Part shown: positions 4,031 to 56,286 of the stretch, in pieces
Layout of the letters: each line of letters starts with the position of its first letter
Position numbering within the stretch: position 1 is the stretch's first letter
Origin: Candidatus Kapaibacterium sp.
GTDB taxonomy: Bacteria > Patescibacteriota > Patescibacteriia > UBA9934
Assembly: GCA_044350705.1 (NCBI GenBank)
Contig: JBILHA010000001.1
Location: forward strand, 49,809-113,808
DNA length: 64,000 nucleotides
Direction: 5' to 3'
The notes under the pieces: generated by a model
Databases searched by the model: none
The model's input: the letters and a program-made list of their open reading frames with translations, nothing else
Told to the model about the DNA's origin: nothing
Program-made: the position numbers and the translations under genes

Positions 4031-4369
4031 ATGATATCTCTTTCCCCTCAAGATTTGAAGGCGAAGCTGGATGGCGGAGTTTCGCTTACTTTGGTAGATT
4101 TGCAAACCGTTGAAGGATACGCTCACCGGCATATCCCCGGTGCAGTACATATGGATCCTTCTTCTCTCTGTGGAGAGGACTGTGAAAAGCTTTTGAAGGA
4201 TAAGGATGCGGATATTGTGCTTTATGGAGAGTTTGATGAGCTTGGTAAGGGCGCTCAGGTGGCAGAAGTGCTTGAACGGGCGGGATATAGTAAGATTTCT
4301 CGCCTTTTGGGGGGTATGATGGGCTGGATGGAGGCGGGTTACGGGATCGAGGGTGGGTCAGAGTCTTAG
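4031..4369 (+). CDS. rhodanese-homology domain protein (apparently lacks the catalytic Cys)
   Basis: 112 aa with rhodanese-like fold signature (LVDLQTVEGYAHRHIPGAVHMD ... IVLYGEFDELGKG) but no Cys in the CRxGx[RT] position. Confidence 0.6.
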   Translation: MISLSPQDLKAKLDGGVSLTLVDLQTVEGYAHRHIPGAVHMDPSSLCGEDCEKLLKDKDADIVLYGEFDELGKGAQVAEVLERAGYSKISRLLGGMMGWMEAGYGIEGGSES

Positions 4370-4411: not shown

Positions 4412-7276
4412 ATGTACGACCATGGGAATATTGATGGGAAGTGGCAGAAAAAATGGGAGGATGCAGGAATTTTTCACGCAAAGCTCGATGATGCACGAGA
4501 GAAGTATTATCTCCTCGTAGAATTTCCGTATCCTTCTGGAGCTGGCCTTCACGTAGGGCATCCCCGAAGTTATACCGCGCTTGATGTGATTGCACGTAAG
4601 CGTCGCATGGAGGGGAAGAATGTGTTGTATCCCATTGGTTGGGACGCGTTTGGTTTGCCAGCAGAAAATCATGCGATAAAAACGGGTACTCATCCAGCCA
4701 TAAATACTGCGGAAAATATCAAAACTTTTAAGAAGCAGATTCAGTCGCTTGGTATTTCTTTTGATTGGTCGCGAGAAATTGATACTACCGATCCCAAATA
4801 TTATCGTTGGACACAGTGGATGTTTAACGAATTTTTCCGACAGGGTTTGTGTTATAAGGCAAAGATGCCGATTAATTGGTGTCCAAGTTGCAAAATTGGT
4901 TTGGCAAATGAAGAAGCTGCAGGTGGTGTATGCGAACGCTGTGGAGGGCCTGTAGAGAAAAAAGAAAAGGAGCAATGGATGATTGCCATGACGAAGTATG
5001 CTGATCGTTTGCTTGAAGATTTGAAAACGGTTGATTATCTTCCAAAAATTAAAAAAGAACAGGAGGAGTGGATTGGACGAAGTGAAGGTGCGGAAATTGA
5101 TTTTCGTCTTGAAGAAATCAGCGAAACGATTACGGTATTCACTACCCGTCCCGATACAATTTTTGGCGTAACCTATATTGTTCTTGCGCCTGAACATCCG
5201 CTTGTTGCGCGATTGGTGACCGATGATCAGCGTTCGCATGTTGAAGTATATATTTCTTCTGTTGCTTCAAAGACTGATGACGAACGTGGAGATGCTACCC
5301 GTGAGAAAACGGGAGTGTTTACTGGAGCGTATGCGGTAAATCCGGTGAATGGCGAGCGTGTTCCGGTCTGGATTGCGGATTATGTTCTTGGTGGTTATGG
5401 AACGGGTGCGGTTATGGCGGTTCCTGCGCATGACGTACGCGACTTCGCATTTGCTACGACGTATGAGTTGCCGATTCGTCCTGTTGTTGCAAAGTATTTT
5501 ATGGAAAGTGAAAATCCTCCTCGTGAAGGTTTTCCTACGGTTCGCAGAAAAAATGTTCACGCCATTGTTCGTCGTGCTACCGATGGCGCAGTGCTCATGC
5601 TTCGTTGGAAGGCGAACCAGCGCGCAAGCGGTGCATATCCGCACACGTTTATCGTGGGTGGTATTGAAGAGGGTGAAGATGCACGCGAGGCGGTGCTTCG
5701 TGAGATTGCTGAAGAAACGGGATTGCACCGCGTGCGTTTCGTTTCTGAAGTTCCCGCGATTGTGCATTCGGAATATTTCGCAGGACACAAAGAGCAGAAT
5801 CGATATGCGGAAATTTCCATTCTCTGCTTTGAGGCTGATGGAGATGAAGCATTCGACGTTGCTCCTGAAGAACTCGAGAAGCATGATCCGATTTGGGTTC
5901 TGCCTTCTGATGTTGCTTCAACGGTAAATGTTGCTGAAGGTCCGTATATTTGGGCGCAGGCAGAAAAACCGTTTGCCATGACCGATGCGGGATATGTTAC
6001 AAATTCCGATTTTCTCAACGGACTTTCTACGGAAGATGCAAAGAAGCGTATTGTTGAAGTTCTTGCTGAACGTGGGTGGGGTAGAGCAAAAACAACGTAT
6101 CGCTTGCGTGACTGGGTTTTCTCCCGTCAGCGTTATTGGGGTGAGCCTATTCCGCTTATTCAATGTAAGAACGGATGTTCGCCTGAGACGAACGGCTGGG
6201 TGACGGTTCCCGATGAAGCATTGCCGGTAACGCTTCCGAATGTGGAACGTTATGAACCCACGGATACGGGTGAGTCTCCGCTTTCGGTTATTTCTGATTG
6301 GGTGAATACCACATGTCCTCAATGCGGAGGAGACGCCGTGCGAGAAACGGATACTATGCCGAACTGGGCAGGTTCGAGTTGGTACTTTTTGCGCTATGCT
6401 GATGCGCACAATGATGCGGCATTTGCAAGTAAAGATGCGCTTGCGTATTGGCTTCCTGTTGATTTGTACAATGGAGGCATGGAGCATGCGACGCGTCATT
6501 TGTTGTATGCGCGCTTCTGGACAAAAGTGTTGTTCGATCGGGGGCATTTGCCGTTTTCCGAGTTTTGTCAGCGTCGCGTTGCGCACGGCATGATTCTTGC
6601 GGAAGATGGAACGAAGATGTCGAAGTCGAAAGGAAATGTGGTGAATCCAGACGATGTCGTGAAGGAGCATGGCGCAGATACGTTGCGCGTGTATGAACTT
6701 TTTATTGGTGCGTTTGATGAAGTTGCTTCGTGGTCAACGAATAGCTTGATTGGCGTTCGTCGATTCCTTGATCGCATTACTCGACTGCAAGAAAAAGTTG
6801 GAGGGGAAGATACTGTAGAGATTCAACGTGTTTTGCAAAAGACGTTGCAGAAAGTTACTGATGATATTGAGGGCATGCGGTTTAATACGGCGGTTGCCGC
6901 GCTCATGGCATGTTTGAATGAGTTGCAGTCCGCGCCTTCGCTTTCTCAAGACGCATTCAAGCTTTACTTGCGTATGCTCGTGCCTTTTGCGCCTCACGTT
7001 GCGAATGAGTGTTGGGAGAACATTGGCGGTGAAGGTTTTGTTGAAGCACAGGCATGGCCAGTAGTTAATGCATCGTTGTTGGTTGATGAAGAAGTTACCT
7101 ATGCGGTACAGGTTAACGGAAAAGTGCGTGCGACGCTTGTACTTCCCGCTGACGCACCCGATGACATGATTATTGCTGCAGCAAAAGCAGATGAATATGT
7201 TGCAAAATATTTGGGAGGACAAGAGCCGAAAAAAGTTATCATCATCCCTAAGAAGATTGTGAGTTTCGTGGTGTAG
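4412..7276 (+). CDS. leuS: leucyl-tRNA synthetase with inserted Nudix hydrolase domain
   Basis: HVGH, TTRPDT editing motif, GTGAVMAVPAHD, YRLRDWVFSRQRYWGEPIP, KMSKSKGN. 954 aa, versus about 800-860 for typical bacterial LeuRS. Residues about 360-520 form a Nudix fold with box GGIEEGEDAREAVLREIAEETGL. Confidence 0.95.
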   Translation: MYDHGNIDGKWQKKWEDAGIFHAKLDDAREKYYLLVEFPYPSGAGLHVGHPRSYTALDVIARKRRMEGKNVLYPIGWDAFGLPAENHAIKTGTHPAINTAENIKTFKKQIQSLGISFDWSREIDTTDPKYYRWTQWMFNEFFRQGLCYKAKMPINWCPSCKIGLANEEAAGGVCERCGGPVEKKEKEQWMIAMTKYADRLLEDLKTVDYLPKIKKEQEEWIGRSEGAEIDFRLEEISETITVFTTRPDTIFGVTYIVLAPEHPLVARLVTDDQRSHVEVYISSVASKTDDERGDATREKTGVFTGAYAVNPVNGERVPVWIADYVLGGYGTGAVMAVPAHDVRDFAFATTYELPIRPVVAKYFMESENPPREGFPTVRRKNVHAIVRRATDGAVLMLRWKANQRASGAYPHTFIVGGIEEGEDAREAVLREIAEETGLHRVRFVSEVPAIVHSEYFAGHKEQNRYAEISILCFEADGDEAFDVAPEELEKHDPIWVLPSDVASTVNVAEGPYIWAQAEKPFAMTDAGYVTNSDFLNGLSTEDAKKRIVEVLAERGWGRAKTTYRLRDWVFSRQRYWGEPIPLIQCKNGCSPETNGWVTVPDEALPVTLPNVERYEPTDTGESPLSVISDWVNTTCPQCGGDAVRETDTMPNWAGSSWYFLRYADAHNDAAFASKDALAYWLPVDLYNGGMEHATRHLLYARFWTKVLFDRGHLPFSEFCQRRVAHGMILAEDGTKMSKSKGNVVNPDDVVKEHGADTLRVYELFIGAFDEVASWSTNSLIGVRRFLDRITRLQEKVGGEDTVEIQRVLQKTLQKVTDDIEGMRFNTAVAALMACLNELQSAPSLSQDAFKLYLRMLVPFAPHVANECWENIGGEGFVEAQAWPVVNASLLVDEEVTYAVQVNGKVRATLVLPADAPDDMIIAAAKADEYVAKYLGGQEPKKVIIIPKKIVSFVV

Positions 7277-7378: not shown

Positions 7379-9772
7379 ATGTCGTTTGCGGAGATTCGCC
7401 CAGGGATGTTGTTTGCTTTCATGTGTGGGGGATTCATTCTTGGTATTGCGTTTGCATCTTTTGATGCGCCATGGTGGGTAGGGGGTGGGGTGTTGGGTTT
7501 GGGGTGTTGGGTGTGGTCTCGTCTCTCGCGAAATTCTGACGTGAGAAGGAATTTTGTGTATGTTTTTTTCTCAATCATTTTTTCTTTGTTGGGCTCTTGG
7601 CGTTATCAGGTTATTCAACCAACCCTGCACTCGGTTTCTATGATTGCAGATAAAGAAATGCGAACTCTTGAAGGAACGATCGTTCGTATTCAGGAAAGTG
7701 AATATGGTATTCGTTTAACGCTCAACGATATTGTTGCGCAGGGAAGGAAATTTGAGGATCGCATTTTGGTACGCGTTCCTCTTTTTTCAGAAAGTAGCTT
7801 AGGGGAGCGGGTGAGTATTGATTGTGCGCTGAAGCGGCCGGAACCTTTTGAAGGGTTTGCCTACGATCGGTATCTTGCGGCGAAAGACATTCAAGCGACG
7901 TGTTCAACGCGGGAAGTGCCTTTTGTTCTTGAAGATGAGCGGGGTATCTGGATGGCTTTTTTGCGTACCGTGTATGGGATAAATAGGTTCTCGATCGCAA
8001 TGATTGATCGCGTATTTCCCGATCCTCATGCGCAGTTATTAGCAGGGCTTTTGTTAGGTGATGATGCGTTTTCAGAAGTGTGGAGTGAGCGATTTTTACG
8101 GACGGGAACGTCTCATATTGTTGCGGCGAGTGGATCAAATGTTGCGCTTGTGGTGATGCTCGTGCTTGGAGGCATGTTTCGTGCGTGTATTTCTCGTAAA
8201 TATGCAACGGCGTTCGCGCTCTTTGGCATTTTGTGTTTTGTTTTTTTGGCTGGTGCAGAATCTGCGGTGACGCGTGCAGGAATTATGGCGTCATTTGTCG
8301 TGATATCGCGAGTCTTGGGAAGGGCATCTTCCGTGAGAAATGTTTTGTTGTGCACGGTGTGTATCATGCTTTTTGATGAGCCTCGTATTTTGCGTGACGA
8401 TATTGGTTTTCAACTTTCTGTTTTGTCGACGATTGGGCTTATTTTCTGGGCAAATACTTTTATTGAGTATGTTTCGTTTGTTCCTGAGCGATTCGGACTT
8501 CGTGAAGGGTTTGCGACAACATTGGCTGCGACCTTAGCTACTTTGCCGGTGACGCTTTTTAGCATGGGGCAGATTTCATTCGTAGGGCCACTTGCAAATT
8601 TGCTTGTTTTACCGCTTTTGCCCTTGGCGATGGGACTTGGCACCTTGGCGACTATTGTAGGTATGGTTCATGGAGAAATTGGTCGTTGGATTGCGTTTCC
8701 TGCGTGGTGGATTTTGGATACGATTCTCATGATCTTGAGAGAACTTTCGAGTTTGTCTTTTGTGTATGTGGAAGTGGTGTGGTGGAAAGTAGTGTTTGGG
8801 GTGTTGGGGGTAGGGGGTGGGGTGTGGATTATGCACCTCGTTTTGAGGGTGCTTCATGTCGACCGCTTGCTTGCCTTTCGTGGGAAGAATCTTCAAGAAG
8901 AGCATAGGAAAGAAGACAAGGTGAATGCAGGAGCTGTCCTTGTCCCATGTCTTTTTGTTGTTCTTTTTTTCATATCTTTTGCGCAACATGTTATACGCGA
9001 TGGATGGTTTTCTTCTTCGGTGCGTGTATGGGTTTTTGATGTGGGACAGGGCGACGCAATTTTTATTGATACTCCAGAAAAAGATGTTGTTATTGATGGG
9101 GGGCCATCACCTATTCTTCGAGAGAAAATCGGCATGATGCTTCCGTGGTTTGATCGGCATCTTGATTATGTTTTTGTTACGCACCCTCACGCAGATCATG
9201 TGGTCGGTTTAGTTTCTTTACTTGAGCATTATGGAGTTTCACTTGTGGGAGAGAGTGGACAGGGGTGCTCCTCGTCGGATTGTCGAGCTTTTGATGAGGT
9301 TGTTCACATTTCATCGGCTATTTTGGCGGGAGAAGTTTTTGAACTTGCGCACGGTATTACTCTTCGCGCAGTTTGGCCGCAAGAAAATTATGGGAATAAA
9401 AAACTTTCTGATCCGAATGATGGCTCTTTGGTTTTTGTTTTAGAGACTCCGCATGGGTCTATGCTTCTTACGGGGGATGCGGGTATTGAAGAAGAGCATC
9501 TTTTTATTCCATTACTGCCAGAGAACATTGAGGTATTAAAAGTTGGACATCACGGGAGTAGCACATCTACCTCGTTAGAGCTCCTTGAGGCTATTCGTCC
9601 AGAGTACGGGATTATTTCTTTAGGCGAAGATAATTCGTACGGCCATCCGCATGAAGAGGCGATACAGCATCTTTTAAAATATCATGTAGAGTTTTTTCAA
9701 ACGAATCTTTCCGGAGATATGAAAGTAGAGTTTGGAGAAGAGGGAGTTGAGGTGACATCGTGGCGGTTATAG
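7379..9772 (+). CDS. comEC: DNA internalization competence protein ComEC/Rec2 (membrane domain + metallo-beta-lactamase domain)
   Basis: N-terminal polytopic competence domain. C-terminal MBL domain VWVFDVGQGDAIFIDTPEKDVVIDGGP ... THPHADHVVGL ... GHHGS. Confidence 0.85.
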   Translation: MSFAEIRPGMLFAFMCGGFILGIAFASFDAPWWVGGGVLGLGCWVWSRLSRNSDVRRNFVYVFFSIIFSLLGSWRYQVIQPTLHSVSMIADKEMRTLEGTIVRIQESEYGIRLTLNDIVAQGRKFEDRILVRVPLFSESSLGERVSIDCALKRPEPFEGFAYDRYLAAKDIQATCSTREVPFVLEDERGIWMAFLRTVYGINRFSIAMIDRVFPDPHAQLLAGLLLGDDAFSEVWSERFLRTGTSHIVAASGSNVALVVMLVLGGMFRACISRKYATAFALFGILCFVFLAGAESAVTRAGIMASFVVISRVLGRASSVRNVLLCTVCIMLFDEPRILRDDIGFQLSVLSTIGLIFWANTFIEYVSFVPERFGLREGFATTLAATLATLPVTLFSMGQISFVGPLANLLVLPLLPLAMGLGTLATIVGMVHGEIGRWIAFPAWWILDTILMILRELSSLSFVYVEVVWWKVVFGVLGVGGGVWIMHLVLRVLHVDRLLAFRGKNLQEEHRKEDKVNAGAVLVPCLFVVLFFISFAQHVIRDGWFSSSVRVWVFDVGQGDAIFIDTPEKDVVIDGGPSPILREKIGMMLPWFDRHLDYVFVTHPHADHVVGLVSLLEHYGVSLVGESGQGCSSSDCRAFDEVVHISSAILAGEVFELAHGITLRAVWPQENYGNKKLSDPNDGSLVFVLETPHGSMLLTGDAGIEEEHLFIPLLPENIEVLKVGHHGSSTSTSLELLEAIRPEYGIISLGEDNSYGHPHEEAIQHLLKYHVEFFQTNLSGDMKVEFGEEGVEVTSWRL
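7473..7516. repeat. G-rich element, copy 1 (TAGGGGGTGGGGTGT + TTTGGGGTGTTGGG) inside comEC
   Basis: Exact 13-mer TAGGGGGTGGGGT shared with 8811-8823 and 50928-50940. Confidence 0.7.
8794..8827. repeat. G-rich element, copy 2 inside comEC (sub-motifs in swapped order)
   Basis: TTTGGGGTGTTGGGGG + TAGGGGGTGGGGTGTGG. Confidence 0.7.
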
Positions 9773-20531: not shown

Positions 20532-21151
20532 AACTCTATACTTGGCAGGGTGCAGACGCGGGAATGCTTGAGCTTCCTAGCAGTTTGTTCGCGGTTGCAG
20601 TAAAGCCAGCTGTTGTGCACGAGGTTATCGTTGCGCAAGAGGCAAACAGCCGCGTTGTCAGTGCTCACACGAAGGATCGCTCTGAAGTTTCTGGTGGTGG
20701 TAAAAAGCCATGGAAGCAGAAGGGAACAGGTCGTGCTCGTCATGGATCCACTCGTTCTCCTATCTGGGTAGGGGGTGGTGTCGCACATGGTCCTCAGGCA
20801 GATCGTAATTTCTCAAAGAAGGTAAACAAGAAGATGAAGCGCGTAGCTATTGCAATGCTTCTCTCGGATCGTGTTGCCGCTGATGCATTCATTGCGGTGG
20901 ACACCCTTGTTCTTCCTGAAGCAAAGACGAAACTCGTCGCTTCTCTGCGTAAGGCTCTTCCTTGTGCTGAGAAGAATGCGCTCGTTATTCTTGGTTCTTC
21001 TGAACAGGCAATGCAGCGTGCAATTCGCAATCTTGCGAATACCCAAGCAATTGGTGCACGCAGCGTAAATCCTCGTGATCTTGCAAAATTTGGTGCAGTT
21101 ATTGCATCGAAGGCTGCTATTGCTGAAATGGAAGAGACGTTTACCGGCTAA
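20519..21151 (+). CDS. rplD: 50S ribosomal protein L4
   Basis: GGGKKPWKQKGTGRAR motif. Overlaps the rplC stop. Confidence 0.93.
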   Translation: MAQVKLYTWQGADAGMLELPSSLFAVAVKPAVVHEVIVAQEANSRVVSAHTKDRSEVSGGGKKPWKQKGTGRARHGSTRSPIWVGGGVAHGPQADRNFSKKVNKKMKRVAIAMLLSDRVAADAFIAVDTLVLPEAKTKLVASLRKALPCAEKNALVILGSSEQAMQRAIRNLANTQAIGARSVNPRDLAKFGAVIASKAAIAEMEETFTG

Positions 21152-23057: not shown

Positions 23058-23810
23058 ATGGGTCACAAAGTCCATCCAAAAGTATTTCGCTTGAACACCG
23101 TCTTCACTTGGGATTCCAAGTGGTTTGCGCGCGGACGTCAGTTCGTCACGCAACTTCAAGAGGATGTTGAGCTCCGCGCATTTCTTCGAAAGGCGCTTAA
23201 AGATGCGGGTTTGAACGATATCGCTATCGAACGAACTCCTAAGCACGTTACGATTACGCTTCGCGCTGCAAAGCCTGGTGTCATCATTGGTCGTCAGGGT
23301 GCGGGTATCGAAGATCTCAAGAAAAAGCTTATGCTTACCTTCTACCGAGGTCGTCGCGTTACCCTCAATCTCAACGTACAAGAGGTTGCAAATCCTGCTC
23401 TTGCTGCATCGGTAGTCGGTCAGCAGATTGCTCAGGATCTTGAAAAGCGCATGCCATTCCGTCGCTCCATGAAGATGACGATTGAGCGTGTGATGAAGGC
23501 TGGGGCAAAGGGTGTGAAAATCACCGTTTCCGGTCGTCTCAACGGTGCGGAAATTGCTCGTACCGAAACTCTTTCACAGGGAAGTATTCCTCTCCATAAC
23601 CTTCGTGCTGATATCGATTTTGCACGTGAACGTGCAAATACGGTGTACGGCGTGATCGGTATTAAAGTATGGATCTATCGTGGTGATGTTTTTGAAGGAG
23701 AACAGCGCACGGAACCTGCAGCGCAATCCGCAGAGCAGGGTGGACGAGATCGTCATGGTGATCGCCGTGGTGGTCGTCGATCCGGAGGAGCTTCTTCATT
23801 CCGCAAATAA
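23058..23810 (+). CDS. rpsC: 30S ribosomal protein S3
   Basis: KH domain. RG-rich C-terminal tail GGRDRHGDRRGGRRSGG. Confidence 0.93.
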   Translation: MGHKVHPKVFRLNTVFTWDSKWFARGRQFVTQLQEDVELRAFLRKALKDAGLNDIAIERTPKHVTITLRAAKPGVIIGRQGAGIEDLKKKLMLTFYRGRRVTLNLNVQEVANPALAASVVGQQIAQDLEKRMPFRRSMKMTIERVMKAGAKGVKITVSGRLNGAEIARTETLSQGSIPLHNLRADIDFARERANTVYGVIGIKVWIYRGDVFEGEQRTEPAAQSAEQGGRDRHGDRRGGRRSGGASSFRK

Positions 23811-27505: not shown

Positions 27506-28126
27506 ATGGCAGAACAAGAAAACATTCAGAATGCAGCTCCTGCAACGCAGGCTGCAGCTCCTCAAGCTGGTGGTTTCCAGCGAGGTAACGATCGCCGTGG
27601 TGGTCGTGGACAGGGTGGGCAACGTGGCGGTGGTCGTGGAGACCGTCGTGGCGGCCGTTCTCAGGAGCGTGACCCTCGTGAATTTGAACAGAAGACGCTT
27701 GAGCTTTCTCGCGTTACCCGTGTGACCAAGGGTGGTAAGCGCATGCGCTTCCGCGCGACGGTTGTTGTGGGTGACAAGAAGGGTCGTGTAGGCTTCGGAG
27801 TGGCAAAGGGCGCTGACGTGGCTATGGCGCTTGATAAAGCGTCACGTCAAGCAAAGAAGCGCTTAGTGCAGGTTCCTTTGCATAAGGGAACAATTCCTCA
27901 CGAGGTTGCTGCTAAGTTTGGTGCTGCAATGGTGATCATTAAGCCAGCTCCACAAGGTACTGGACTTAAGAGCGGTGGTCCTGCACGTATCGTGCTTGAA
28001 CTTGCCGGAGTACCGAATGCGGTTTCCAAGATTCTTGGTGGTAAGAATAAGATTAACAACGTAAAAGCTGCATTTGCTGCGCTGAAAATGTTGCGCAAAG
28101 AGAAGGCTTCTACGCCTTCCGCATAA
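27506..28126 (+). CDS. rpsE: 30S ribosomal protein S5 with RGG-rich N-terminal extension
   Basis: S5 core (RVTKGGKRMRFRA ...) preceded by GGFQRGNDRRGGRGQGGQRGGGRGDRRGG. Confidence 0.9.
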   Translation: MAEQENIQNAAPATQAAAPQAGGFQRGNDRRGGRGQGGQRGGGRGDRRGGRSQERDPREFEQKTLELSRVTRVTKGGKRMRFRATVVVGDKKGRVGFGVAKGADVAMALDKASRQAKKRLVQVPLHKGTIPHEVAAKFGAAMVIIKPAPQGTGLKSGGPARIVLELAGVPNAVSKILGGKNKINNVKAAFAALKMLRKEKASTPSA

Positions 28127-32007: not shown

Positions 32008-32409
32008 ATGAAATACTTGGGTATCGATTACGGTACGAGAAAGATCGGACTCGCTCTTGGGGAGTCTGTTTCGCGTACCGCGATGCCGCTTGAAGTTTTT
32101 GTTGGTGGGGATGATGCGGTAGAGCGTATTTGTGCCTTAGCGCAGCAAGAGCATATTGATGCATTTGTCGTCGGGATTCCTGTACCTTTTCATACAGGAC
32201 AGCCGCGTACCCAATTTGATCGTGCTCAACGTTTTGCGGATGCTTTGGAAAATATGTCGCGACTCCCTGTATACAAAATTGATGAAGTATTTACTTCTCG
32301 AGAAGCACAGCGTATTCAGGATGAATACGGAAGTCGTGTTCCGGAAGATGCTCTTGCGGCCATGATGCTCGTACAGGAATATTTTGATAATCATCTCTCC
32401 TCTTCGTAG
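32008..32409 (+). CDS. ruvX: Holliday-junction resolvase-like nuclease RuvX/YqgF
   Basis: MKYLGIDYGTRKIGLALG ... RNase H-like fold motifs. Confidence 0.85.
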   Translation: MKYLGIDYGTRKIGLALGESVSRTAMPLEVFVGGDDAVERICALAQQEHIDAFVVGIPVPFHTGQPRTQFDRAQRFADALENMSRLPVYKIDEVFTSREAQRIQDEYGSRVPEDALAAMMLVQEYFDNHLSSS

Positions 32410-32428
32410 GAGAAGCGTGTGGAGGAGT

Positions 32429-33202
32429 ATGTGGTTTTCTCAAAAAACGGAAGCGATTATCTTGACCGTCCATCCCTGGAAAGAAGCGGATAAGCGGTAT
32501 GTTGCGCTGACTCGTGATTGCGGAAAGGTTGAGTTTATTGGACGCGGTGCACGGAAGGGGAAGGCAAAGCTTGCGGCGCATTTAGAGCCTTTTGCTCGCG
32601 TGCAACTGGAACTTGTTGTTGGTCGTCGGCAAACGACCGTTATTGGCGTTGAGCGTCTCGAGCATTTTTCTGGAATTGCGTATTCGCTTGAACACCGATT
32701 GGTTGCACAAGCGGCATCTTCCTTGCTTGATAAGACGTTGTATGTTGATCAGGTAGATGCGCATTTGTATTCAGAACTTTCCTCGTTCCTCCTTTTTTTG
32801 CATGGAACGGAAACGCTTTCTTCTGCTCGTGGCGCATTTGTTCTTGGAGGCTTTTTACTTCGCCTTATGCGACATTTGGGATACGAGACAGAATTGCATG
32901 CGTGTTTAGGGTGCCAAGATGCTATTCAGCCGCTTTCGTTTCGTTGGCATGATGCACGGGGAGGGCTTGTGTGCACAACGTGTTTACTTGATAAGCAAAA
33001 AGAGTGGGTAACTGCGCGAAGAATTGATGAGGAAATCGTCACATTGTTGCGTTTTGCGCGCGATGCGGGATATGAGGATTTAATGAAGGCTGGGCTTCGG
33101 GGGGAGCATTTGGAGCATTTTTCATCATGTGTTCATGATTTGTTGAGAATTCATGTTCCTGGGTATGTAGATAGGCCGTATTGGGAGATGGTTGTTGTGT
33201 GA
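32429..33202 (+). CDS. recO: DNA repair protein RecO
   Basis: OB-fold N-domain. C4 zinc finger CLGCQ ... CTTC. GGAGGAG Shine-Dalgarno. Confidence 0.85.
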   Translation: MWFSQKTEAIILTVHPWKEADKRYVALTRDCGKVEFIGRGARKGKAKLAAHLEPFARVQLELVVGRRQTTVIGVERLEHFSGIAYSLEHRLVAQAASSLLDKTLYVDQVDAHLYSELSSFLLFLHGTETLSSARGAFVLGGFLLRLMRHLGYETELHACLGCQDAIQPLSFRWHDARGGLVCTTCLLDKQKEWVTARRIDEEIVTLLRFARDAGYEDLMKAGLRGEHLEHFSSCVHDLLRIHVPGYVDRPYWEMVVV

Positions 33203-33247
33203 TGGGAGTGAGGGGAGTGATGGGAGTAAAGGGAGTAGGGGGAGTGG
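33203..33247. repeat. five tandem 9-bp G-rich repeats (RRDGGGAGT); G-quadruplex-capable (six GGG runs)
   Basis: gatgggagt gaggggagt gatgggagt aaagggagt agggggagt ggg, read directly. Confidence 0.7.
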
Positions 33248-40629: not shown

Positions 40630-40706
40630 CGCAGGGTGGAGCAACCAGGCAGCTCGCCGGGCTCATAACCCGGAGGTTACAGGTTCAAATCCTGTCCCTG
40701 CAACCA
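40630..40706 (+). tRNA. tRNA-fMet (initiator, anticodon CAU)
   Basis: C1xA72 mismatch. Three consecutive G-C pairs closing the anticodon stem (GGG/CCC). T-loop GGTTCAAATCC. CCA encoded. Confidence 0.9.
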
Positions 40707-40740
40707 CAAAAACCTCTCATTTGTTGAGAGGTTTTTGTTA
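40707..40740 (+). terminator. intrinsic terminator after tRNA-fMet
   Basis: aacctctca-tttgt-tgagaggtt followed by tttt. Confidence 0.65.
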
Positions 40741-40762
40741 TGCATGACGTATTTCGTCTATT

Positions 40763-40791
40763 AAAAAAATCCGAATTTCTTCGGATTTTTT
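40763..40791 (-). terminator. intrinsic terminator after the minus-strand tRNA pair (bidirectional hairpin)
   Basis: A-run, atccgaa-tttct-tcggat, T-run; abuts the tRNA-Met 3' end. Confidence 0.6.
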
Positions 40792-40868
40792 TGGTGGCTG
40801 GGGCCGGGATCGAACCGGCGACCTAAGGCTTATGAGTCCTTCGCTCTAACCAACTGAGCTACCCAGCC
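40792..40868 (-). tRNA. tRNA-Met (anticodon CAU; elongator, or Ile2 if lysidinylated)
   Basis: Cloverleaf GGCTGGG ... CTCATAA ... GGTTCGATCC ... CCCAGCCACCA. Confidence 0.85.
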
Positions 40869-40872
40869 AAAG

Positions 40873-40959
40873 TGGTGCCTTGGGAGGGACTCGAACCCTC
40901 AATCCATTGCTGGAAACGGATTTTGAGTCCGTCGCGTATACCAATTCCGCCACCAAGGC
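40873..40959 (-). tRNA. tRNA-Leu (anticodon CAA)
   Basis: 87 nt with long variable arm. Anticodon loop CTCAAAA. T-loop GGTTCGAGTCC. CCA encoded. Confidence 0.88.
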
Positions 40960-48465: not shown

Positions 48466-50720
48466 TTTCGAAAGGTTTTTTTAGGTGATCCTGCTTTTTT
48501 TACCAGGAGTTCTATTGCCTGTTCGAGGGTAACGCTTGTCGGTTCTATTTTTTTTGGAATCGTTGCATTTATTTTTCCATCTGTTACATAGGGGCCGAAT
48601 TTCCCGTCTTTTACGAGAATTTCTGCTCCTGTTTCTGGATGCTTGCCAAGATTTGCGAGGGGAGTAAGCATCTTTTGTTTTCGTTCCTTTGCTTCGCTCA
48701 TGATGCGGAGAGCCTCTTCTAGGCTTACTGTACGTGGGTCAACGCCTGGAGGAAGGGATGCATTTACTGTTCCTGCTTTGAGATACGGGCCGAAGCGTCC
48801 ATCGTTTGCGATTATTTCTTCTCCTTCCGCGTTCTTTCCTAGTATCCGTGGAAGTACCAGAGCCTGCAGTGCATCTTCTAAGGTTACGGTATCTACCATT
48901 GCTTCTTTGGGAAGGCTTGCACGACGTGGTTTTTCTTTTCCCTCTTCCTCCTCACCAATTTGTACATACGGGCCGAAGCGCCCTGTTTGTACGTAGACCG
49001 GTAGTCCAGAGGCGGGATCTTCTCCGAGAAGGCGCTTCTTGTTTATTGCTTCCCGCGTCAGTTCTTTGGTTTTTTCTTCGATGGCATTATGAAAGGGACT
49101 GTAGAAGCTTGAGAGTACGTTGTGCCATTCCTGTGTTCCTTCCGCAATTTCATCGAGTTTGTTTTCCATGGATGCGGTAAACTCGTAGTTTACGATGTCA
49201 GGAAAATGATCTTTCAGAAGATCTGAGACGATAAATGCGATATCTACTGGCTGTAAGCGGTTATTATCATCACGCATGATATAGCCGCGATCCGTAATGG
49301 TGGCTATGGTAGGCGCATACGTAGAAGGACGTCCAATTCCGTGCTCTTCAAGTGCCTTTACGAGTGTTGCGTCAGAATACCGGGCAGGAGGCTCGGTAGT
49401 ATGTTTTTCCGAGCGTACTTCAGTGGGGGATCCAATCTCCTCCTTTTCTTTGAGATCGGGGAGGATTTTATCATCAGCAGCTTTCCATACCTTCATGTAC
49501 CCAGGGAATACTACAGTCGCTCCTGTGGCGCGGAAGGTCATGTCTTCGGCGGTGAGATCGATTCCTGTACGGCGAATGCGTGCAGGAGGCAGCTGTGAGG
49601 CAAGGGTACGGCGCCAAATGAGGTCATAGAGCTTTTTCATGCCTGGTTCAGCGTCTGATGCCTTGAATGCTTCTCCCGATAGTGAAATGTCTGTTGGGCG
49701 GATTGCCTCGTGGGCTTCTTGAGCACCTTTTTTATTTGTTTTATAGCGTACTGCTCCTTTGGCAAATTCTGTGCCAAAATTTTGCGCGACGTAGGCTTGG
49801 GTCGCCGTGAGGAATTCTTCGCTGAGGTTGGTGGAGTCGGTACGCATGTAGGTAATGCGCCCGGTTTCGTACAGGCGTTGTGCGAGCGTCATGGTTTGTT
49901 TGGCGCTCATGCCAAGGCGGTTGTACGCTTCTTGTTGAAGTGTAGAGGTGGTGAGAGGTACGGGACTCTTTTTCTGTACCTCCTTCTGTTCTACCGATGA
50001 AACGACGAAAGATGCTTTTCGTGCGGCTTCGGCAATGCGGTTTGAGATTTCTTCATTGTTTAGTTCTGTTTTTTCAAGTGATTTTCCACTCAGGGCAGAC
50101 AGCTTTGCTTCAAAAGGACTGCCATCTTTTTGAAAGGTGGCATCAATGGTCCAATAATCCTGGGAAACGAACGCTTGTCGTTCGCGTTCTCTTTCCACGA
50201 TCATGCGTACTGCGACGGACTGTACACGTCCCGCAGAAAGACCTCTGCGAATTTTTTTCCACAGGAGCGGAGAGAGCTCGTAACCCACCAAACGATCAAG
50301 AATGCGACGTGTTTGTTGTGCGTCGACAAGCTTTGTATCTATCGTGCGTGCTTCTTTGAGTGCTCGATCAATGGCTGATTTGGTGATTTCGTGAAAGGTG
50401 ATTCGTTTTGCTTTTTCTGGTTTCATTTTCAGTACTTCTGCAATGTGCCATGCGATTGCTTCCCCTTCTCGGTCTTCGTCAGTTGCAAGATAGATTTCAT
50501 CGGCTTTTTTTGCGGCGTCCTGGAGCGCTTTTACCTTTGCTTTTTTTTCTGCCGGAACTTCATATGTCGGCTCAAAGCCGTTTTTTACATCTACCCCGAG
50601 TTTTCTCGCAGGAAGATCTCGAATATGCCCAAACGAGGAGAGGACTTCATAGCCTTTCCCAAGGAATTTATTAATGGTTTTTGCTTTGGTTGGTGACTCA
50701 ACAATGAGAAGAATGCTCAT
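48444..50720 (-). CDS. topA: DNA topoisomerase I
   Basis: TOPRIM MSILLIVESPTKAKTI. Catalytic Tyr region. C-terminal GRFGPY repeat domains. Confidence 0.92.
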   Translation of the reverse strand: MSILLIVESPTKAKTINKFLGKGYEVLSSFGHIRDLPARKLGVDVKNGFEPTYEVPAEKKAKVKALQDAAKKADEIYLATDEDREGEAIAWHIAEVLKMKPEKAKRITFHEITKSAIDRALKEARTIDTKLVDAQQTRRILDRLVGYELSPLLWKKIRRGLSAGRVQSVAVRMIVERERERQAFVSQDYWTIDATFQKDGSPFEAKLSALSGKSLEKTELNNEEISNRIAEAARKASFVVSSVEQKEVQKKSPVPLTTSTLQQEAYNRLGMSAKQTMTLAQRLYETGRITYMRTDSTNLSEEFLTATQAYVAQNFGTEFAKGAVRYKTNKKGAQEAHEAIRPTDISLSGEAFKASDAEPGMKKLYDLIWRRTLASQLPPARIRRTGIDLTAEDMTFRATGATVVFPGYMKVWKAADDKILPDLKEKEEIGSPTEVRSEKHTTEPPARYSDATLVKALEEHGIGRPSTYAPTIATITDRGYIMRDDNNRLQPVDIAFIVSDLLKDHFPDIVNYEFTASMENKLDEIAEGTQEWHNVLSSFYSPFHNAIEEKTKELTREAINKKRLLGEDPASGLPVYVQTGRFGPYVQIGEEEEGKEKPRRASLPKEAMVDTVTLEDALQALVLPRILGKNAEGEEIIANDGRFGPYLKAGTVNASLPPGVDPRTVSLEEALRIMSEAKERKQKMLTPLANLGKHPETGAEILVKDGKFGPYVTDGKINATIPKKIEPTSVTLEQAIELLVKKAGSPKKTFRKRKTSSR

Positions 50721-51804
50721 ACGGCACAAGGGTGTAGCGCCCGTTTTTTAACGCAAGATATCCTTCAATTTCCCAGATATTGAGAATTCCTGCAACTTCA
50801 GACGCTTTTTCTTGCGCATATTCTACCAGGGAATCAAAAGATCGTGGTTGCTGGAGAAGATTCCAGAGTTTTTGTTGAAGCGGTGAAAGAGGAGGGGGAG
50901 GTGATGGGGGAGTAGGGGTGGAGGGTGTAGGGGGTGGGGTTTGGGGTATGGGTATCTCGAGAAAATCATGAATAGACGTGCAGAGTCCCGCTCCTTCTTT
51001 TATGAGTGCATGACACCCCTCGCTTACGGGGCTCGTAATGGGCCCGGGTATGGCAAACACCTCTCTATTTTCCTTGAGTGCCTGATATCCCGTAATGAGA
51101 GATCCACTTTTTTTCTTTGCTTCCACGATGAGTGTTCGTTCGGCGATTCCTGCGATGAGTCGATTTCTGATGGGGAAGTGATATTTTTGTGGATGAAAAG
51201 CAGGGGGTCTCTCGCTTATGATTCCCCCGTTCCCTTCGAGGATCCTTTTTGCGATTTCTTGTTCTCGAGAGTTGAGCGCAAGGTGGCCTCCTGCAAGAAC
51301 TACCAGGATGTTGCCTCCTGCAGCGTGTGCACCTCGAATGGCATGTTCATCTATGCCGTAGGCGAGTCCTGAAATTACCCCTCTTTGTTGGAGGGCTACT
51401 GCCTTTCCAAACTTCCACGCCTGTTCTTTGCCGTATGCTGATGCTTCACGAGCTCCTACGATTGCGCACCACGTAATTCCTGGACAAATTTTACCCTTTA
51501 AAAAGAGTACGAGGGGAGGATCGTGAATTTCCTTGAGCAGGGGAGGGTATCTTGTGTCATTTCTTGCAATACAAGTCACGCCGTTTTCCTCGATTTCTTT
51601 TTTGTATGTTTCAGGAGCTTGTATGGTTCTCCAGGAGAGAAAACTTTTCCTCCACTGAATATGTTTTGGGAACCACTCCTCTAATGCTTCGGCAGAAGCG
51701 ATGAAAAGATGAGAGCGATCGTGTACTCGATGTGCGACTTCTCGCGCGATGCTTGGCGACCAGTGCGGAGAAAAAGTAAGTGCAATGTCGTGAATGAGAC
51801 TCAT
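50698..51804 (-). CDS. dprA: DNA processing protein DprA/Smf
   Basis: Rossmann-like DprA core IVGAREASAYG ... GLAYGIDEHAIRGA. Pro-rich linker and C-terminal winged-helix extension. 3' end overlaps topA (smf-topA arrangement). Confidence 0.85.
   Translation of the reverse strand: MSLIHDIALTFSPHWSPSIAREVAHRVHDRSHLFIASAEALEEWFPKHIQWRKSFLSWRTIQAPETYKKEIEENGVTCIARNDTRYPPLLKEIHDPPLVLFLKGKICPGITWCAIVGAREASAYGKEQAWKFGKAVALQQRGVISGLAYGIDEHAIRGAHAAGGNILVVLAGGHLALNSREQEIAKRILEGNGGIISERPPAFHPQKYHFPIRNRLIAGIAERTLIVEAKKKSGSLITGYQALKENREVFAIPGPITSPVSEGCHALIKEGAGLCTSIHDFLEIPIPQTPPPTPSTPTPPSPPPPLSPLQQKLWNLLQQPRSFDSLVEYAQEKASEVAGILNIWEIEGYLALKNGRYTLVPYEHSSHC
50891..50953. repeat. G-rich element, copy 3, antisense to the dprA Pro-rich linker
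   Basis: ggagggggaggtgatgggggagtaggggtggagggtgtagggggtggggtttggggtatggg. Confidence 0.7.
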
Positions 51805-55349: not shown

Positions 55350-55497
55350 ACCGCTATGAAGAAGTATACCTTATCAGAAAGGCGTGAAAATAGGGAGAGA
55401 GTAAGGTGTTGGAGGAGAAAGTGGATAGCGGGAGGGATGGGGAGTGGGGGTGTGTTATTCTGAATAAAATTCTTTTTCCTCCTTAATATAAGGAAAT

Positions 55498-56286
55498 ATG
55501 CCTTCCAATTCTTCCTCGTTTTGGCCACAGTGGGACGATCAACCCGTATTTACGGTTTTACTTGCACTTCTTCTTGCTGCCGGAGTCGTGTGGGCAGGAG
55601 CATCTGCGGGTAAGGCATTTCAAGAAGCGCAGCGTGTGGGGTATGGTGAACAGATGTCGCCCAGTATTTCGGTCAATGCAGAAGGAACTGCGGTAGTAAA
55701 GAATGACATTGGTACGGTTGATATCGGTATTACAAAGACCGCTTCTACTGCCACGGAAGCTCAGACGACCGCAACGGAGGCGATGAATGCTTTAACAAAT
55801 GCTCTTCGTCAATTAGGCATTCCTTCTGAGGATCTTCAAACTTCCTCGTACAATGTTTATCCGCAGTACGATTATAATAATTCTCCTGCGCAGATTGTAG
55901 GATATGAAGCGAGCCAGATGCTTACCGTGAAGGTCCGCAATAGTGAATTGGTGAGCTCGGTACTGGGGAAAGCGGGAGAGATGGGCGCTACCAATATAAG
56001 CAGCCTTCGTTTTGAGGCAGATGACGATACTCAGGCGGTACAAGAGGCCCGTGAAGAAGCGATTGATCGTGCGCGTGAACAGGCACAAGCTACTGCTGAC
56101 GCTATGGGAGCCCGTTTGGGAGAAGTCATCTCCTATTCTGAAAGTCGAGGAGACATGGGCTATCCGTATGCGCACTCTTATGCAGAGGCTGCAATAGATA
56201 GTGCAATGGGTGGTGTAAATCCGAGTGTTCAGATGGGTCAGAGCGAGGTGCAGTTGTACGTTTATCTTACGTACAGCATTGAATAA
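55498..56286 (+). CDS. SIMPL/DUF541 domain protein
   Basis: N-terminal TM. DUF541 pattern across about 230 aa. Confidence 0.65.
   Translation: MPSNSSSFWPQWDDQPVFTVLLALLLAAGVVWAGASAGKAFQEAQRVGYGEQMSPSISVNAEGTAVVKNDIGTVDIGITKTASTATEAQTTATEAMNALTNALRQLGIPSEDLQTSSYNVYPQYDYNNSPAQIVGYEASQMLTVKVRNSELVSSVLGKAGEMGATNISSLRFEADDDTQAVQEAREEAIDRAREQAQATADAMGARLGEVISYSESRGDMGYPYAHSYAEAAIDSAMGGVNPSVQMGQSEVQLYVYLTYSIE

What the first reader, a model, noticed from the sequence alone, without database searches (positions are those of the whole stretch)
7473..8827. Exact G-rich 13-mer repeated twice inside comEC (with swapped sub-motif order)
TAGGGGGTGGGGTGT occurs at 7479 and 8811, and TTTGGGGTGTTGGG at 7497 and 8794. 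In the first site the order is a-b and in the second b-a. Both encode Gly/Val/Trp-rich TM-like peptides (VGGGVLGLGCWVW and FGVLGVGGGVW) in the same codon phase. This could be an internal duplication within ComEC. But the identical 13-mer also occurs antisense in dprA (see separate finding), which argues for a DNA-level element. Each block contains at least four GGG runs with short loops, so it is G-quadruplex capable.
Basis: seen in the sequence. Interest (0 to 1): 0.55.

Follow-up and report, generated by a model that had tools for sequence, protein, structure and literature searches.

The report
G-run heptamer tracts inside comEC
Two membrane-helix-coding stretches of the DNA-uptake gene comEC are short tandem arrays of the same 7-base G-rich unit; one was probably copied from the other and still varies by 21 bases between strains. 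This is a real but ordinary repeat, with no sign of a dispersed functional DNA element.

Summary
The repeats are real. The maximal exact matches are 18 nt (7476-7493 = 8808-8825) and 15 nt (7497-7511 = 8794-8808), both inside comEC. A 14-mer recurs at 50927-50940, antisense to the Pro-rich linker of dprA.

The "swapped order" is a register effect. Both comEC sites are 7-nt-periodic G-run arrays (TAGGGGG / TGGGGTG / TTGGGKK). Their identity peaks at every offset equal to 1311 mod 7.

Site 2 lies in the last helix of the Competence domain. It is old: relatives with about 60-65% protein identity carry the same DNA at the orthologous place.

Site 1 lies in TM helix 2. It exists only in this lineage. 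A strain about 97.5% identical in comEC DNA has one extra 21-nt unit (VGSGVLG) there. In that strain, site 1 matches site 2 colinearly and in frame over 29 nt with one mismatch (0/5000 under codon resampling).

Best reading: a short patch was copied from site 2 into site 1, followed by slippage. This happened on a G+T-rich leading strand that carries all 7 quadruplex-type motifs of the window.

The dprA and uL4 matches are close to chance. G-quadruplex capacity is confirmed only in silico. Interest is low to moderate.

The parts
7379..9772 (+). comEC ORF (797 aa): DUF4131 at aa 31-180, Competence domain at aa 224-487, metallo-beta-lactamase at aa 554-749
   Evidence: ORF list. Pfam hits with E = 2e-44, 2.5e-19 and 1.3e-12. 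An identical protein is named ComEC by JGI.
7472..7520 (+). Site 1: a 7-nt-periodic G-run array, TGGTGGG|TAGGGGG|TGGGGTG|TTGGGTT|TGGGGTG|TTGGGTG|TGGTCTC. It encodes WWVGGGVLGLGCWVWS (aa 32-47), which is TM helix 2. It contains motif a (7476-7493) and motif b (7497-7511). It is specific to this lineage and varies in copy number.
   Evidence: TRF reports period 14 x 2.6 copies at 86% matches, and period 7 x 3.9 copies. Heptamer segmentation. Predicted helix 32-49 with pLDDT about 65-68. Absent from relatives. Strain L134 has an extra 21-nt unit, GTGGGGAGTGGGGTGTTGGGA.
8783..8831 (+). Site 2: a 7-nt-periodic G-run array, TGGAAAG|TAGTGTT|TGGGGTG|TTGGGGG|TAGGGGG|TGGGGTG|TGGATTA. It encodes WKVVFGVLGVGGGVWI (aa 469-484), the start of the last helix of the Competence domain. 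It contains motif b (8794-8808) and motif a (8808-8825). It is ancestral.
   Evidence: TRF periods 7 and 9. Register analysis. Orthologous DNA is conserved in L002 (GTAGGGGGTGGGGTGTGG, 18/18) and L003 (20/21). Identical in strain L134. Predicted helix 468-506.
50894..50953 (+). G-run tract on the + strand, antisense to dprA codons for IPIPQTPPPTPSTPTPPSPPP. That peptide is the linker between the DprA domain and the winged-helix domain. The tract holds the 14-mer GTAGGGGGTGGGGT at 50927-50940.
   Evidence: Sequence. The linker is hypervariable in length and rich in Pro/Ser/Thr in all 13 close relatives. The 14-mer match to comEC has P = 0.025-0.042 under local shuffles. The gene sequence is identical in other samples.
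50698..51804 (-). dprA ORF (368 aa)
   Evidence: Pfam DNA_processg_A, E = 4e-62; the DprA_WH match (22.8 bits) falls just under its 22.9-bit cut-off.
20765..20778 (+). 14-mer TGGGTAGGGGGTGG, shared with site 1, inside a ribosomal-protein uL4-like ORF. It encodes W-V-G-G-G in the same frame. Treated as a coincidental match, not part of any element.
   Evidence: k-mer census; codon context PIWVGGGVAHG.

Best explanation
The two comEC sites are short, degenerate tandem arrays of one 7-nt G-run unit. Three units make a 21-nt, 7-codon unit encoding V-G-G-G-V-L-G. The arrays lie in the two least conserved transmembrane helices of ComEC.

Proposed history:
1. Site 2 (last helix of the Competence domain) is the older copy.
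2. In the recent ancestor of this strain, a patch of about 30-50 nt from site 2 was copied into TM helix 2, just after the conserved Pro-Trp-Trp. The likely mechanism is ectopic gene conversion or template switching.
3. Replication slippage then changed the unit number. The sister strain keeps two 21-nt units. This window has lost the first, so the motifs appear as 'a then b' here and 'b then a' at site 2.

Background that favours such tracts: the + strand is the G+T-rich replication strand. Codons made only of G and T encode Gly, Val, Trp, Leu, Phe and Cys, which a weakly constrained membrane helix tolerates. Their complements encode Pro, Thr and Gln, which a disordered linker in a minus-strand gene (dprA) tolerates.

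Shown here: the periodicity, the conservation pattern, the 21-nt polymorphism, the colinear 29-nt match and the strand bias. Inferred: the copying event and its direction, slippage as the mechanism, and the absence of a DNA-level function.
For: Periodicity. Identity between the two blocks is 0.62-0.79 at offsets 1297, 1304, 1311, 1318, 1325 and 1332 (all equal to 1311 mod 7). At nearly all other offsets with comparable overlap it is about 0.25-0.55. TRF finds periods 7 and 14. The repeat finder gives an ungapped in-frame alignment of 39 nt at 79%.

Age.
- Site 2 DNA is shared at the orthologous position with L002 (18/18 nt) and L003 (20/21 nt), although codon identity at 4-fold sites is only about 0.39.
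- Site 1 has no counterpart in 19 relatives.

Slippage. Strain L134 (97.5% nt identity in comEC) has an exact 21-nt, 7-codon insertion at site 1 and an identical site 2.

Copying. L134 site 1 and site 2 share TGGGGTGTTGGG[A/G]GTAGGGGGTGGGGTGT, colinear and in frame.
- P(>=29 nt with <=1 mismatch) = 0/5000 with the peptide fixed and codons resampled.
- 0/5000 with codon order shuffled.
- 0.016 even when only the heptamer units are shuffled.
- For the window itself, P(>=18) <= 0.0003.

Strand bias.
- 4-fold sites are G- and T-rich on the + strand in genes of both orientations.
- Cumulative GC skew rises monotonically.
- There are 201 G runs of 4 or more against 52 C runs, and 7 quadruplex-type motifs on + against 0 on -.
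- The same asymmetry holds in the relatives' loci.
- The three sites are the three most G+T-rich 36-nt windows of the 64 kb.
- Leading-strand G4 enrichment tied to GC skew is published (PMC12581993), as is the effect of skew on amino-acid composition (PMC2779903).

No sign of a hypervariable switch. dprA is identical across several samples, and all comEC variants keep an intact frame.
Against: - No single alignment register in the window explains both the 18-mer and the 15-mer, so at least two events or an extra 14-nt duplication must be assumed.
- The trailing LGCWVW part carries motif b out of frame. Its origin is unexplained.
- Only one sister strain shows the two-unit state, so polarity (deletion here versus duplication there) rests on parsimony.
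- Under the most generous null (heptamer units shuffled) P is only 0.016, and the case was picked post hoc from 64 kb.
- Quadruplex-type motifs persist at the site-2 helix in 4 of 6 lineages, although synonymous permutation predicts 0.04-0.46 per lineage. This could reflect selection on G runs rather than neutral bias.
- The genome-wide motif count could not be obtained.
Confidence: 0.68

Rival explanations
1. Pure convergence. Two Gly/Val/Trp-rich membrane helices happen to share strings because G/T-only codons form a tiny alphabet. No DNA was ever copied.
For: - Most of the G+T richness follows from the peptides themselves: 81.4 of 96 positions expected against 88 observed.
- Another 18-nt exact repeat in the window (23760 / 27590) encodes DRRGGR in two unrelated ORFs.
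- The uL4-like ORF shares a 14-mer while encoding WVGGG.
- Relatives also have Gly-rich TM2 helices, for example FGGGGVF in P0011.
Against: - Codon-resampling, codon-shuffle and nucleotide-shuffle nulls give P <= 0.0003 for the 18-mer, and 0/4000 for the 18 + 15 pair.
- The same kinds of null give 0/5000 for the 29-nt colinear match in L134.
- GTA is a minor Val codon and GGT a minor Gly codon in comEC outside the sites (11% and 18%), and GGG makes up only 31% of Gly codons, yet the same codon series is used at both sites.
Confidence: 0.13
2. Selected G-quadruplex elements. The G-run arrays fold into G4 in the comEC mRNA or in the non-template DNA strand, and in the template strand of dprA. 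They tune expression of competence genes or stimulate recombination in them.
For: - The three strongest G4Hunter regions of the window lie in comEC (two) and dprA.
- RNAfold with G4 allowed gives -38.0 against -10.2 kcal/mol at site 2 and -22.1 against -8.3 at site 1.
- A quadruplex-type motif at the site-2 helix is present in the window, L134, L002, L004 and L005, although synonymous permutation retains it in only 4-46% of trials.
- The two comEC motifs are retained in 28% and 10% of permutations.
Against: - Such motifs are common on the + strand in many unrelated genes and spacers, here and in relatives. This is the known correlate of GC skew (PMC12581993).
- Genic motif excess over synonymous permutation is not significant: 4 observed against 1.92 expected, P = 0.09.
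- L003 and L006 lack the motif.
- The lineages are not independent.
- The dprA linker keeps a motif in 74% of permutations simply because it is poly-Pro.
- No literature links G4 and Patescibacteria.
- Nothing was tested experimentally.
Confidence: 0.08
3. Dispersed DNA signal. The 13/14-mer would be a DNA-uptake sequence, a Chi-like site or a small mobile repeat that happens to sit in competence genes.
For: - Three exact copies in 64 kb against 0.04 expected by dinucleotide shuffles.
- All copies are on one strand.
- The host genes act in DNA uptake and processing.
Against: - Three copies per 64 kb is far below the roughly one-per-kb density of uptake sequences (own knowledge of Neisseria DUS and Haemophilus USS).
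- No copies occur in about 12 kb of extra source-genome DNA.
- All copies lie inside low-complexity coding tracts.
- The dprA copy has P = 0.03-0.04 under local shuffles.
- 120 metagenome hits to the motif come from unrelated contigs, one hit each, and none is comEC or dprA.
- There are no inverted repeats or terminal structure and no Rfam family.
Confidence: 0.03
4. Protein-level selection. Both helices need the same glycine-zipper face (VGGGVLG) for helix packing in the channel, and the DNA identity is a side effect.
For: - Both segments are predicted helices.
- They align in frame with 8 of 16 identical residues.
- GxxxG-type spacing is present.
- The 21-nt polymorphism is exactly one heptad.
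Against: - Motif b is read in different frames at the two sites.
- The periodicity is 7 nt, not a multiple of 3.
- Relatives tolerate entirely different TM2 sequences.
- Both helices have the lower pLDDT and conservation of the protein.
- Identical synonymous codons are not explained by protein selection.
Confidence: 0.08

Closest known systems
In-frame coding tandem repeats (mini/microsatellite-like VNTRs) generated by replication slippage
   Same: Head-to-tail periodic units. Copy number differs by one whole 21-nt unit between near-identical strains, with the frame preserved. The tracts lie in poorly constrained protein segments.
   Different: Very few copies (about 2-3 units of 21 nt) and a degenerate sequence (about 80% matches). 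The basic period is 7 nt, so the same string is translated in more than one frame. A second, related array lies 1.3 kb away in the same gene.
Leading-strand enrichment of putative G-quadruplex motifs in bacteria with strong GC skew (Quadrupia catalogue, PMC12581993)
   Same: All 7 motifs of the window and all motifs in the relatives' loci are on the G-rich strand. The strand bias is seen at 4-fold sites whatever the gene orientation.
   Different: Here the strongest motifs are coding and encode membrane-helix or linker peptides. No evidence of folding or function was obtained.
Neisseria pilE-associated G4 (own knowledge: Cahoon and Seifert 2009), a G4 needed for pilin antigenic variation
   Same: A G4-capable sequence associated with genes of the type IV pilus / transformation sphere.
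   Different: The pilE G4 is non-coding, lies upstream of the gene, depends on a dedicated sRNA promoter and drives gene conversion from silent cassettes. None of these features is present or testable here.
DNA uptake sequences (Neisseria DUS, Pasteurellaceae USS; own knowledge)
   Same: A short exact oligomer repeated in a genome that encodes ComEC and DprA.
   Different: The density is orders of magnitude too low. The copies are strand-biased, confined to low-complexity coding tracts, and not placed in terminator-like inverted pairs.
Strand-asymmetry effects on amino-acid composition (PMC2779903 for mitochondria; own knowledge: Borrelia and other bacteria)
   Same: GT-rich codons (Gly, Val, Trp, Leu, Phe, Cys) occur on the G+T-rich strand. 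CA-rich codons (Pro, Thr, Gln) occur in the opposite-strand gene.
   Different: Here the effect is seen as local extremes, 36 nt at 92-100% G+T, rather than a proteome-wide shift.

Membership tests
Tandem repeat / VNTR in a coding region | Head-to-tail periodic copies detectable by a tandem-repeat finder | tested here: met
   TRF: 7481-7516 period 14 x 2.6 (86%), 7488-7514 period 7 x 3.9, 8797-8827 period 7 x 4.4. Offset scan peaks every 7 nt.
Tandem repeat / VNTR in a coding region | Copy-number polymorphism between closely related genomes | tested here: met
   L134 (97.5% nt identity in comEC) has one extra 21-nt unit at site 1; site 2 is invariant.
Phase-variable contingency locus | Repeat-number changes that shift the reading frame or switch the gene off in part of the population | tested here: not met
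   The only length variant seen is in frame (21 nt). All full-length variants keep an intact ORF. dprA is identical in other samples. Read-level data were not available.
Canonical putative G-quadruplex sequence | Four or more runs of at least 3 G separated by loops of 1-7 nt; G4Hunter score at least 1.5 | tested here: met
   7476-7511, 8798-8822 and 50894-50952 match the regex. G4Hunter scores are 2.48, 2.92 and 2.64. ViennaRNA with G4 enabled folds all three into G4.
Functional G-quadruplex element | Demonstrated folding and a phenotype on disruption, or conservation beyond coding constraints | tested here: inconclusive
   Synonymous permutation gives a genic motif count of 4 against 1.92 expected, P = 0.09. 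The site-2 motif is kept in 4 of 6 lineages against 0.04-0.46 expected, but the lineages are not independent. Folding and phenotype are not testable here.
DNA uptake sequence (DUS/USS) | Hundreds to thousands of copies per genome (about 1 per kb), on both strands, often as inverted pairs in terminators | tested here: not met
   Three exact copies in 64 kb, all on + and all in coding low-complexity tracts. None in about 12 kb more of the genome. A whole-genome count could not be made.
Dispersed small repeat (REP/MITE-like) | Multiple copies with conserved ends or inverted repeats, mostly intergenic | tested here: not met
   No inverted-repeat structure at the sites. All copies are coding. No Rfam family.
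Internal protein-domain duplication in ComEC | Both copies present and alignable across the protein family | tested here: not met
   Site 1 is not shared by any of 19 relatives. Only site 2 is (partly) conserved.
Ectopic (non-allelic) gene conversion / templated patch | A colinear tract of near-identity, including synonymous sites, between non-allelic sites, with one copy demonstrably older | tested here: met
   A 29-nt colinear in-frame match with 1 mismatch in L134; 0/5000 under codon resampling. Site 2 is older. The mechanism itself is not testable.

The most novel reading that the evidence does not exclude
The heptamer G-run arrays are selected G-quadruplex elements. Under this reading, a conserved rG4/G4 at the last channel helix of comEC was copied into TM helix 2 in this lineage, with a third in dprA. 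Together they would couple expression or recombination of the DNA-uptake genes to G4 folding in a reduced-genome (Patescibacteria-like) bacterium.
Probability: 0.07. Interest if true: 0.6.

Novelty: new member of a known kind. Interest (0 to 1): 0.25.

Why it matters
The main value is a worked example of how a striking exact repeat in a gene can be explained. Strong replication-strand bias and slippage in weakly constrained helices and linkers create G/T-only, frame-tolerant tandem tracts. These tracts look like dispersed motifs and like G-quadruplex elements.

The case also documents:
- a 21-nt length polymorphism in a ComEC transmembrane helix between near-identical strains;
- a probable intragenic patch copy between two helices.

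Practical caution: G4 or motif scans in skewed genomes need controls that respect codons and repeats.

If the G4 reading were true, it would give a testable link between G4 structures and competence genes in an uncultivated lineage.

Tried and rejected
It returned 120 unrelated loci with one match each. None encodes ComEC or DprA, and the source contig was not among them.
2. The search for related loci with ComEC in genome contigs found no relatives.
3. Exact look-up of the 797-aa ORF and of the first ORF of the window failed. The 788-aa form, P0001, worked.
Only about 12 kb of extra source DNA was obtained, and it held no motif copies.
5. Looking for strain variation in the dprA tract: the full dprA genes in L129 and L130 are identical, and the other contigs match the window at 99.95-100%.
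6. A codon-context preference for GTA GGG GGT: 3 of 13 V-G-G in the window, but relatives give too few cases to judge.
7. Literature search for G-quadruplex plus Patescibacteria found 0 papers.
8. Rfam has no family at any of the sites.
9. Rejected ideas:
- DNA-uptake sequence (density too low);
- phase-variation switch (the only variant is in frame);
- protein-domain duplication (site 1 is not conserved);
- assembly artefact (identical sequence in independent assemblies).
Full report
OBSERVATION

The strings reported are in the sequence. TAGGGGGTGGGGT occurs exactly at 7479, 8811 and 50928 on the + strand, with a one-mismatch copy at 20769. That is four matches against 0.04 expected from dinucleotide-preserving shuffles. 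TTTGGGGTGTTGGG occurs exactly at 7498 and 8795. A k-mer census shows the maximal shared strings:
- 18 nt, GGGTAGGGGGTGGGGTGT, at 7476-7493 and 8808-8825;
- 15 nt, GTTTGGGGTGTTGGG, at 7497-7511 and 8794-8808;
- an in-phase 12-mer, TGGGGTGTTGGG, at 7486 and 8797.

Both sites lie in the ORF 7379-9772 (+). Pfam identifies it as ComEC: DUF4131 at aa 31-180, Competence at aa 224-487, Lactamase_B at aa 554-749. The third copy is antisense to the ORF 50698-51804 (-), which is DprA.

- Motif a is in the same codon phase at both sites, but motif b is not. It reads L-G-C-W at site 1 and F-G-V-L-G at site 2.
- The 'swap' is not a rearrangement (see Anatomy).

ANATOMY

Both sites are short arrays with a 7-nt period.
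- Site 1, cut from 7472: TGGTGGG|TAGGGGG|TGGGGTG|TTGGGTT|TGGGGTG|TTGGGTG|TGGTCTC.
- Site 2, cut from 8783: TGGAAAG|TAGTGTT|TGGGGTG|TTGGGGG|TAGGGGG|TGGGGTG|TGGATTA.

Sliding one block over the other gives 62-79% identity at offsets 1297, 1304, 1311, 1318, 1325 and 1332, that is, every 7 nt. At nearly all other offsets with comparable overlap identity is about 25-55%. Tandem Repeats Finder reports periods 7 and 14 at both sites. The repeat finder gives an ungapped, in-frame 39-nt alignment at 79%.

The 18-mer (offset 1332), the 15-mer (offset 1297) and the colinear alignment (offset 1311) are therefore three registers of the same periodic structure. 'a-b versus b-a' is what two windows on a periodic array look like.

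Three heptamers make 21 nt, or seven codons, encoding V-G-G-G-V-L-G. Because 7 is not a multiple of 3, the same string is translated in different frames. A G/T-only string has no stop codon in any frame and encodes only Gly, Val, Trp, Cys, Leu or Phe.

An AlphaFold2 model (pTM 0.81) places site 1 in helix 32-49 and site 2 at the start of helix 468-506. Both have modest confidence, with pLDDT about 59-69.

COMPARATIVE EVIDENCE

The window comes from a JGI metagenome contig of 462 kb. The homologues that carry a source name are labelled Patescibacteria or Uhrbacteria.

More distant relatives. The closest distinct ComEC proteins are 58-65% identical. In their alignment both helices are among the least conserved parts of the protein.
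- At the DNA level, site 2 is conserved at the orthologous place. L002 has GTAGGGGGTGGGGTGTGG (18/18). L003 has GGGGTGTTGGGGGTAGGGGGa (20/21).
- This holds although only about 39% of 4-fold codons are identical between these genes. These runs are among the longest orthologous exact runs of each pair, but they are not outliers.
- Site 1 has no counterpart in any relative.

The sister strain. The 90% cluster of this ComEC contains an 804-aa variant, P0246. Its contig, L134, is 95-98.6% identical to the window in DNA, and 97.5% within comEC.
- It carries exactly one extra 21-nt unit at site 1. The sequence there is GTG GGG AGT GGG GTG TTG GGA, encoding VGSGVLG, followed by GTA GGG GGT GGG GTG TTG GGT.
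- Its site 2 is identical to the window's.
- In L134, site 1 and site 2 share TGGGGTGTTGGG[A/G]GTAGGGGGTGGGGTGT. This is 29 nt, colinear, in frame, with one mismatch at a Gly third position.

So the two-unit state has the same order as site 2. The window's 'a then b' order follows from lacking the first unit.

STATISTICS

For the window, site 1 was compared with the real site 2 under three nulls: peptide fixed and codons resampled, codon order shuffled, and nucleotides shuffled.
- P(longest match >=18) was <=0.0003.
- The 18 + 15 pair occurred 0 times in 4000.

For L134, the 29-nt, one-mismatch match occurred:
- 0 times in 5000 under codon resampling;
- 0 times in 5000 under codon shuffling;
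- in 1.6% of trials when only the heptamer units were shuffled.

Codon choice is not what the genome favours. GGG is the rarest Gly codon of the window (16%) and makes up 31% of Gly codons in comEC outside the sites. GTA is 11% of Val codons there.

Most of the G+T richness does follow from the peptides: 81.4 of 96 positions expected against 88 observed, P = 0.003. At third positions the excess gives P = 0.017.

A control shows that 18-nt exact repeats alone are not unique. 23760-23777 and 27590-27607 both encode DRRGGR in two ORFs of the ribosomal-protein region.

The dprA 14-mer is only marginally unusual for its composition: P = 0.042 with G-run units shuffled and 0.025 with nucleotides shuffled. 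The 14-mer in the uL4-like ORF encodes W-V-G-G-G in the same frame.

BACKGROUND COMPOSITION

The + strand is G+T-rich whatever the gene orientation.
- 4-fold third positions give sense-strand GC skew +0.21 and TA skew +0.39 in + genes.
- The same positions give -0.36 and -0.13 in - genes.
- Cumulative GC skew rises monotonically across the window.
- G runs of 4 or more number 201, against 52 C runs.

All 7 quadruplex-type motifs are on the + strand, with none on the - strand. A first-order Markov model expects 0.58. The relatives' loci show the same one-sided pattern, in many different genes. This matches the published leading-strand enrichment of G4 motifs tied to GC skew (PMC12581993).

The three sites are the three most G+T-rich 36-nt windows of the 64 kb, at 100%, 97% and 92%. 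In dprA, which is on the - strand, the tract is read as CA-rich codons: IPIPQTPPPTPSTPTPPSPPP. This is a linker that is hypervariable in length and rich in Pro/Ser/Thr in all close relatives. Skew-driven shifts toward GT- or CA-encoded amino acids are documented (PMC2779903).

G-QUADRUPLEX CAPACITY

The regex, G4Hunter (2.48, 2.92, 2.64) and ViennaRNA with G4 enabled all call the three tracts G4-capable. ViennaRNA gives:
- site 1: -22.1 against -8.3 kcal/mol;
- site 2: -38.0 against -10.2 kcal/mol.

Selection for this capacity is not demonstrated.
- Within-gene synonymous permutation expects 1.92 genic motifs against 4 observed (P = 0.09). It keeps the comEC motifs in 28% and 10% of trials and the dprA motif in 74%.
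- A motif at the site-2 helix is present in the window, L134, L002, L004 and L005. It is absent in L003 and L006. Permutation expectations are 0.04-0.46.
- That result is suggestive, but the lineages share ancestry.

MECHANISM (BEST EXPLANATION, ABOUT 0.68)

1. Site 2 is an old, weakly constrained helix-coding tract. On a G+T-rich strand it has become a heptamer-periodic G-run array.
2. After divergence from the 60-65% relatives, and before the split of the window strain and L134, a patch of about 30-50 nt from site 2 was copied into TM helix 2. The insertion point is right after the conserved Pro-Trp-Trp, which offers microhomology with the WW before site 2. The likely route is ectopic conversion or template switching.
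3. Slippage then altered the unit number, giving the 21-nt indel between strains and the 14-nt tandem at 7486-7513.

Steps shown: periodicity, age of site 2, novelty of site 1, the polymorphism, and the colinear match with shared synonymous sites. Steps inferred: the copying event and its direction, slippage as the mechanism, polarity of the indel, and the absence of a DNA-level function.

RIVALS

- Pure convergence (0.13).
- Selected G4 elements (0.08).
- Protein-level glycine-zipper selection (0.08).
- A dispersed DNA signal such as an uptake sequence (0.03).

The evidence for and against each is listed under the rival explanations.

COMPARISON WITH KNOWN KINDS

The tracts behave like an in-frame coding tandem repeat: the periodicity and copy-number polymorphism tests are both met. 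They are canonical quadruplex-type motifs of the leading-strand kind already catalogued. They fail the tests for:
- an uptake sequence (density, strand, location);
- a phase-variation switch (only an in-frame variant, ORFs intact);
- a REP/MITE-like repeat;
- a protein-domain duplication.

The instance is new. The kind is known.

LIMITS

- The motif could not be counted over the whole source genome.
- Only one sister strain informs the polymorphism.
- No read-level data were available, and no experiment was done.

VERDICT

It is largely explained as a slippage-prone, strand-bias-favoured tandem tract with an intragenic patch copy. The dprA link is weak. Interest is 0.25.

Noticed in passing
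window 33199-33246 (+), just after the stop codon of ORF 32384-33202: An intergenic tandem array of a 9-nt unit (GGGAGTGAN, 5.3 copies, 82% matches; also period 18), which is itself a quadruplex-type motif. Each unit carries a GGAG/GGGAG Shine-Dalgarno-like core and a stop codon. The next long ORF starts at 33580.
   Followed up: partly
window 23760-23777 and 27590-27607 (+): A second 18-nt exact direct repeat (GATCGCCGTGGTGGTCGT) encoding D-R-R-G-G-R in the same frame in two different ORFs of the ribosomal-protein region. It serves as a control showing that convergent low-complexity peptides can give 18-nt identities.
   Followed up: partly
window 4412-7276 (+): The leucyl-tRNA synthetase (954 aa) carries a NUDIX domain inserted between its two tRNA-synt_1 halves. 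The insertion is also present in the relatives of L004 and L006. It is absent from the 874-aa LeuRS of L005.
   Followed up: no
whole window; also loci L001-L006: Extreme strand asymmetry of G runs. There are 201 G runs of 4 or more against 52 C runs on the + strand. All 7 quadruplex-type motifs are on +, including inside minus-strand genes. The same holds in the relatives.
   Followed up: yes
L135 (ENA contig, 1223 nt, coverage about 2x) and protein P0243: Two independent partial assemblies of this comEC stop at the same residue (…EVV), about 20 nt before the site-2 G tract. L135 aligns only to 7597-8775, the stretch between the two G tracts, and has unrelated ends. This may reflect poor sequencing or assembly across the G runs, but coverage is low.
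   Followed up: partly
window 4336-4357 and 55430-55450 (+): Two further quadruplex-type motifs lie in spacers: one upstream of leuS, and one between the minus-strand ORFs 53745-55349 and 55813-56175. The leuS-upstream one is conserved in strain L134 with one substitution.
   Followed up: no
window 40630-40959: A cluster of three tRNA genes, one on + and two on - (Rfam).
   Followed up: no
window 7476-7493 and 8808-8825: The 18-nt direct repeats are 1332 nt apart, which is 444 codons. Recombination between them would delete the OB-fold and the channel domain in frame. No such variant was seen among the cluster members.
   Followed up: partly
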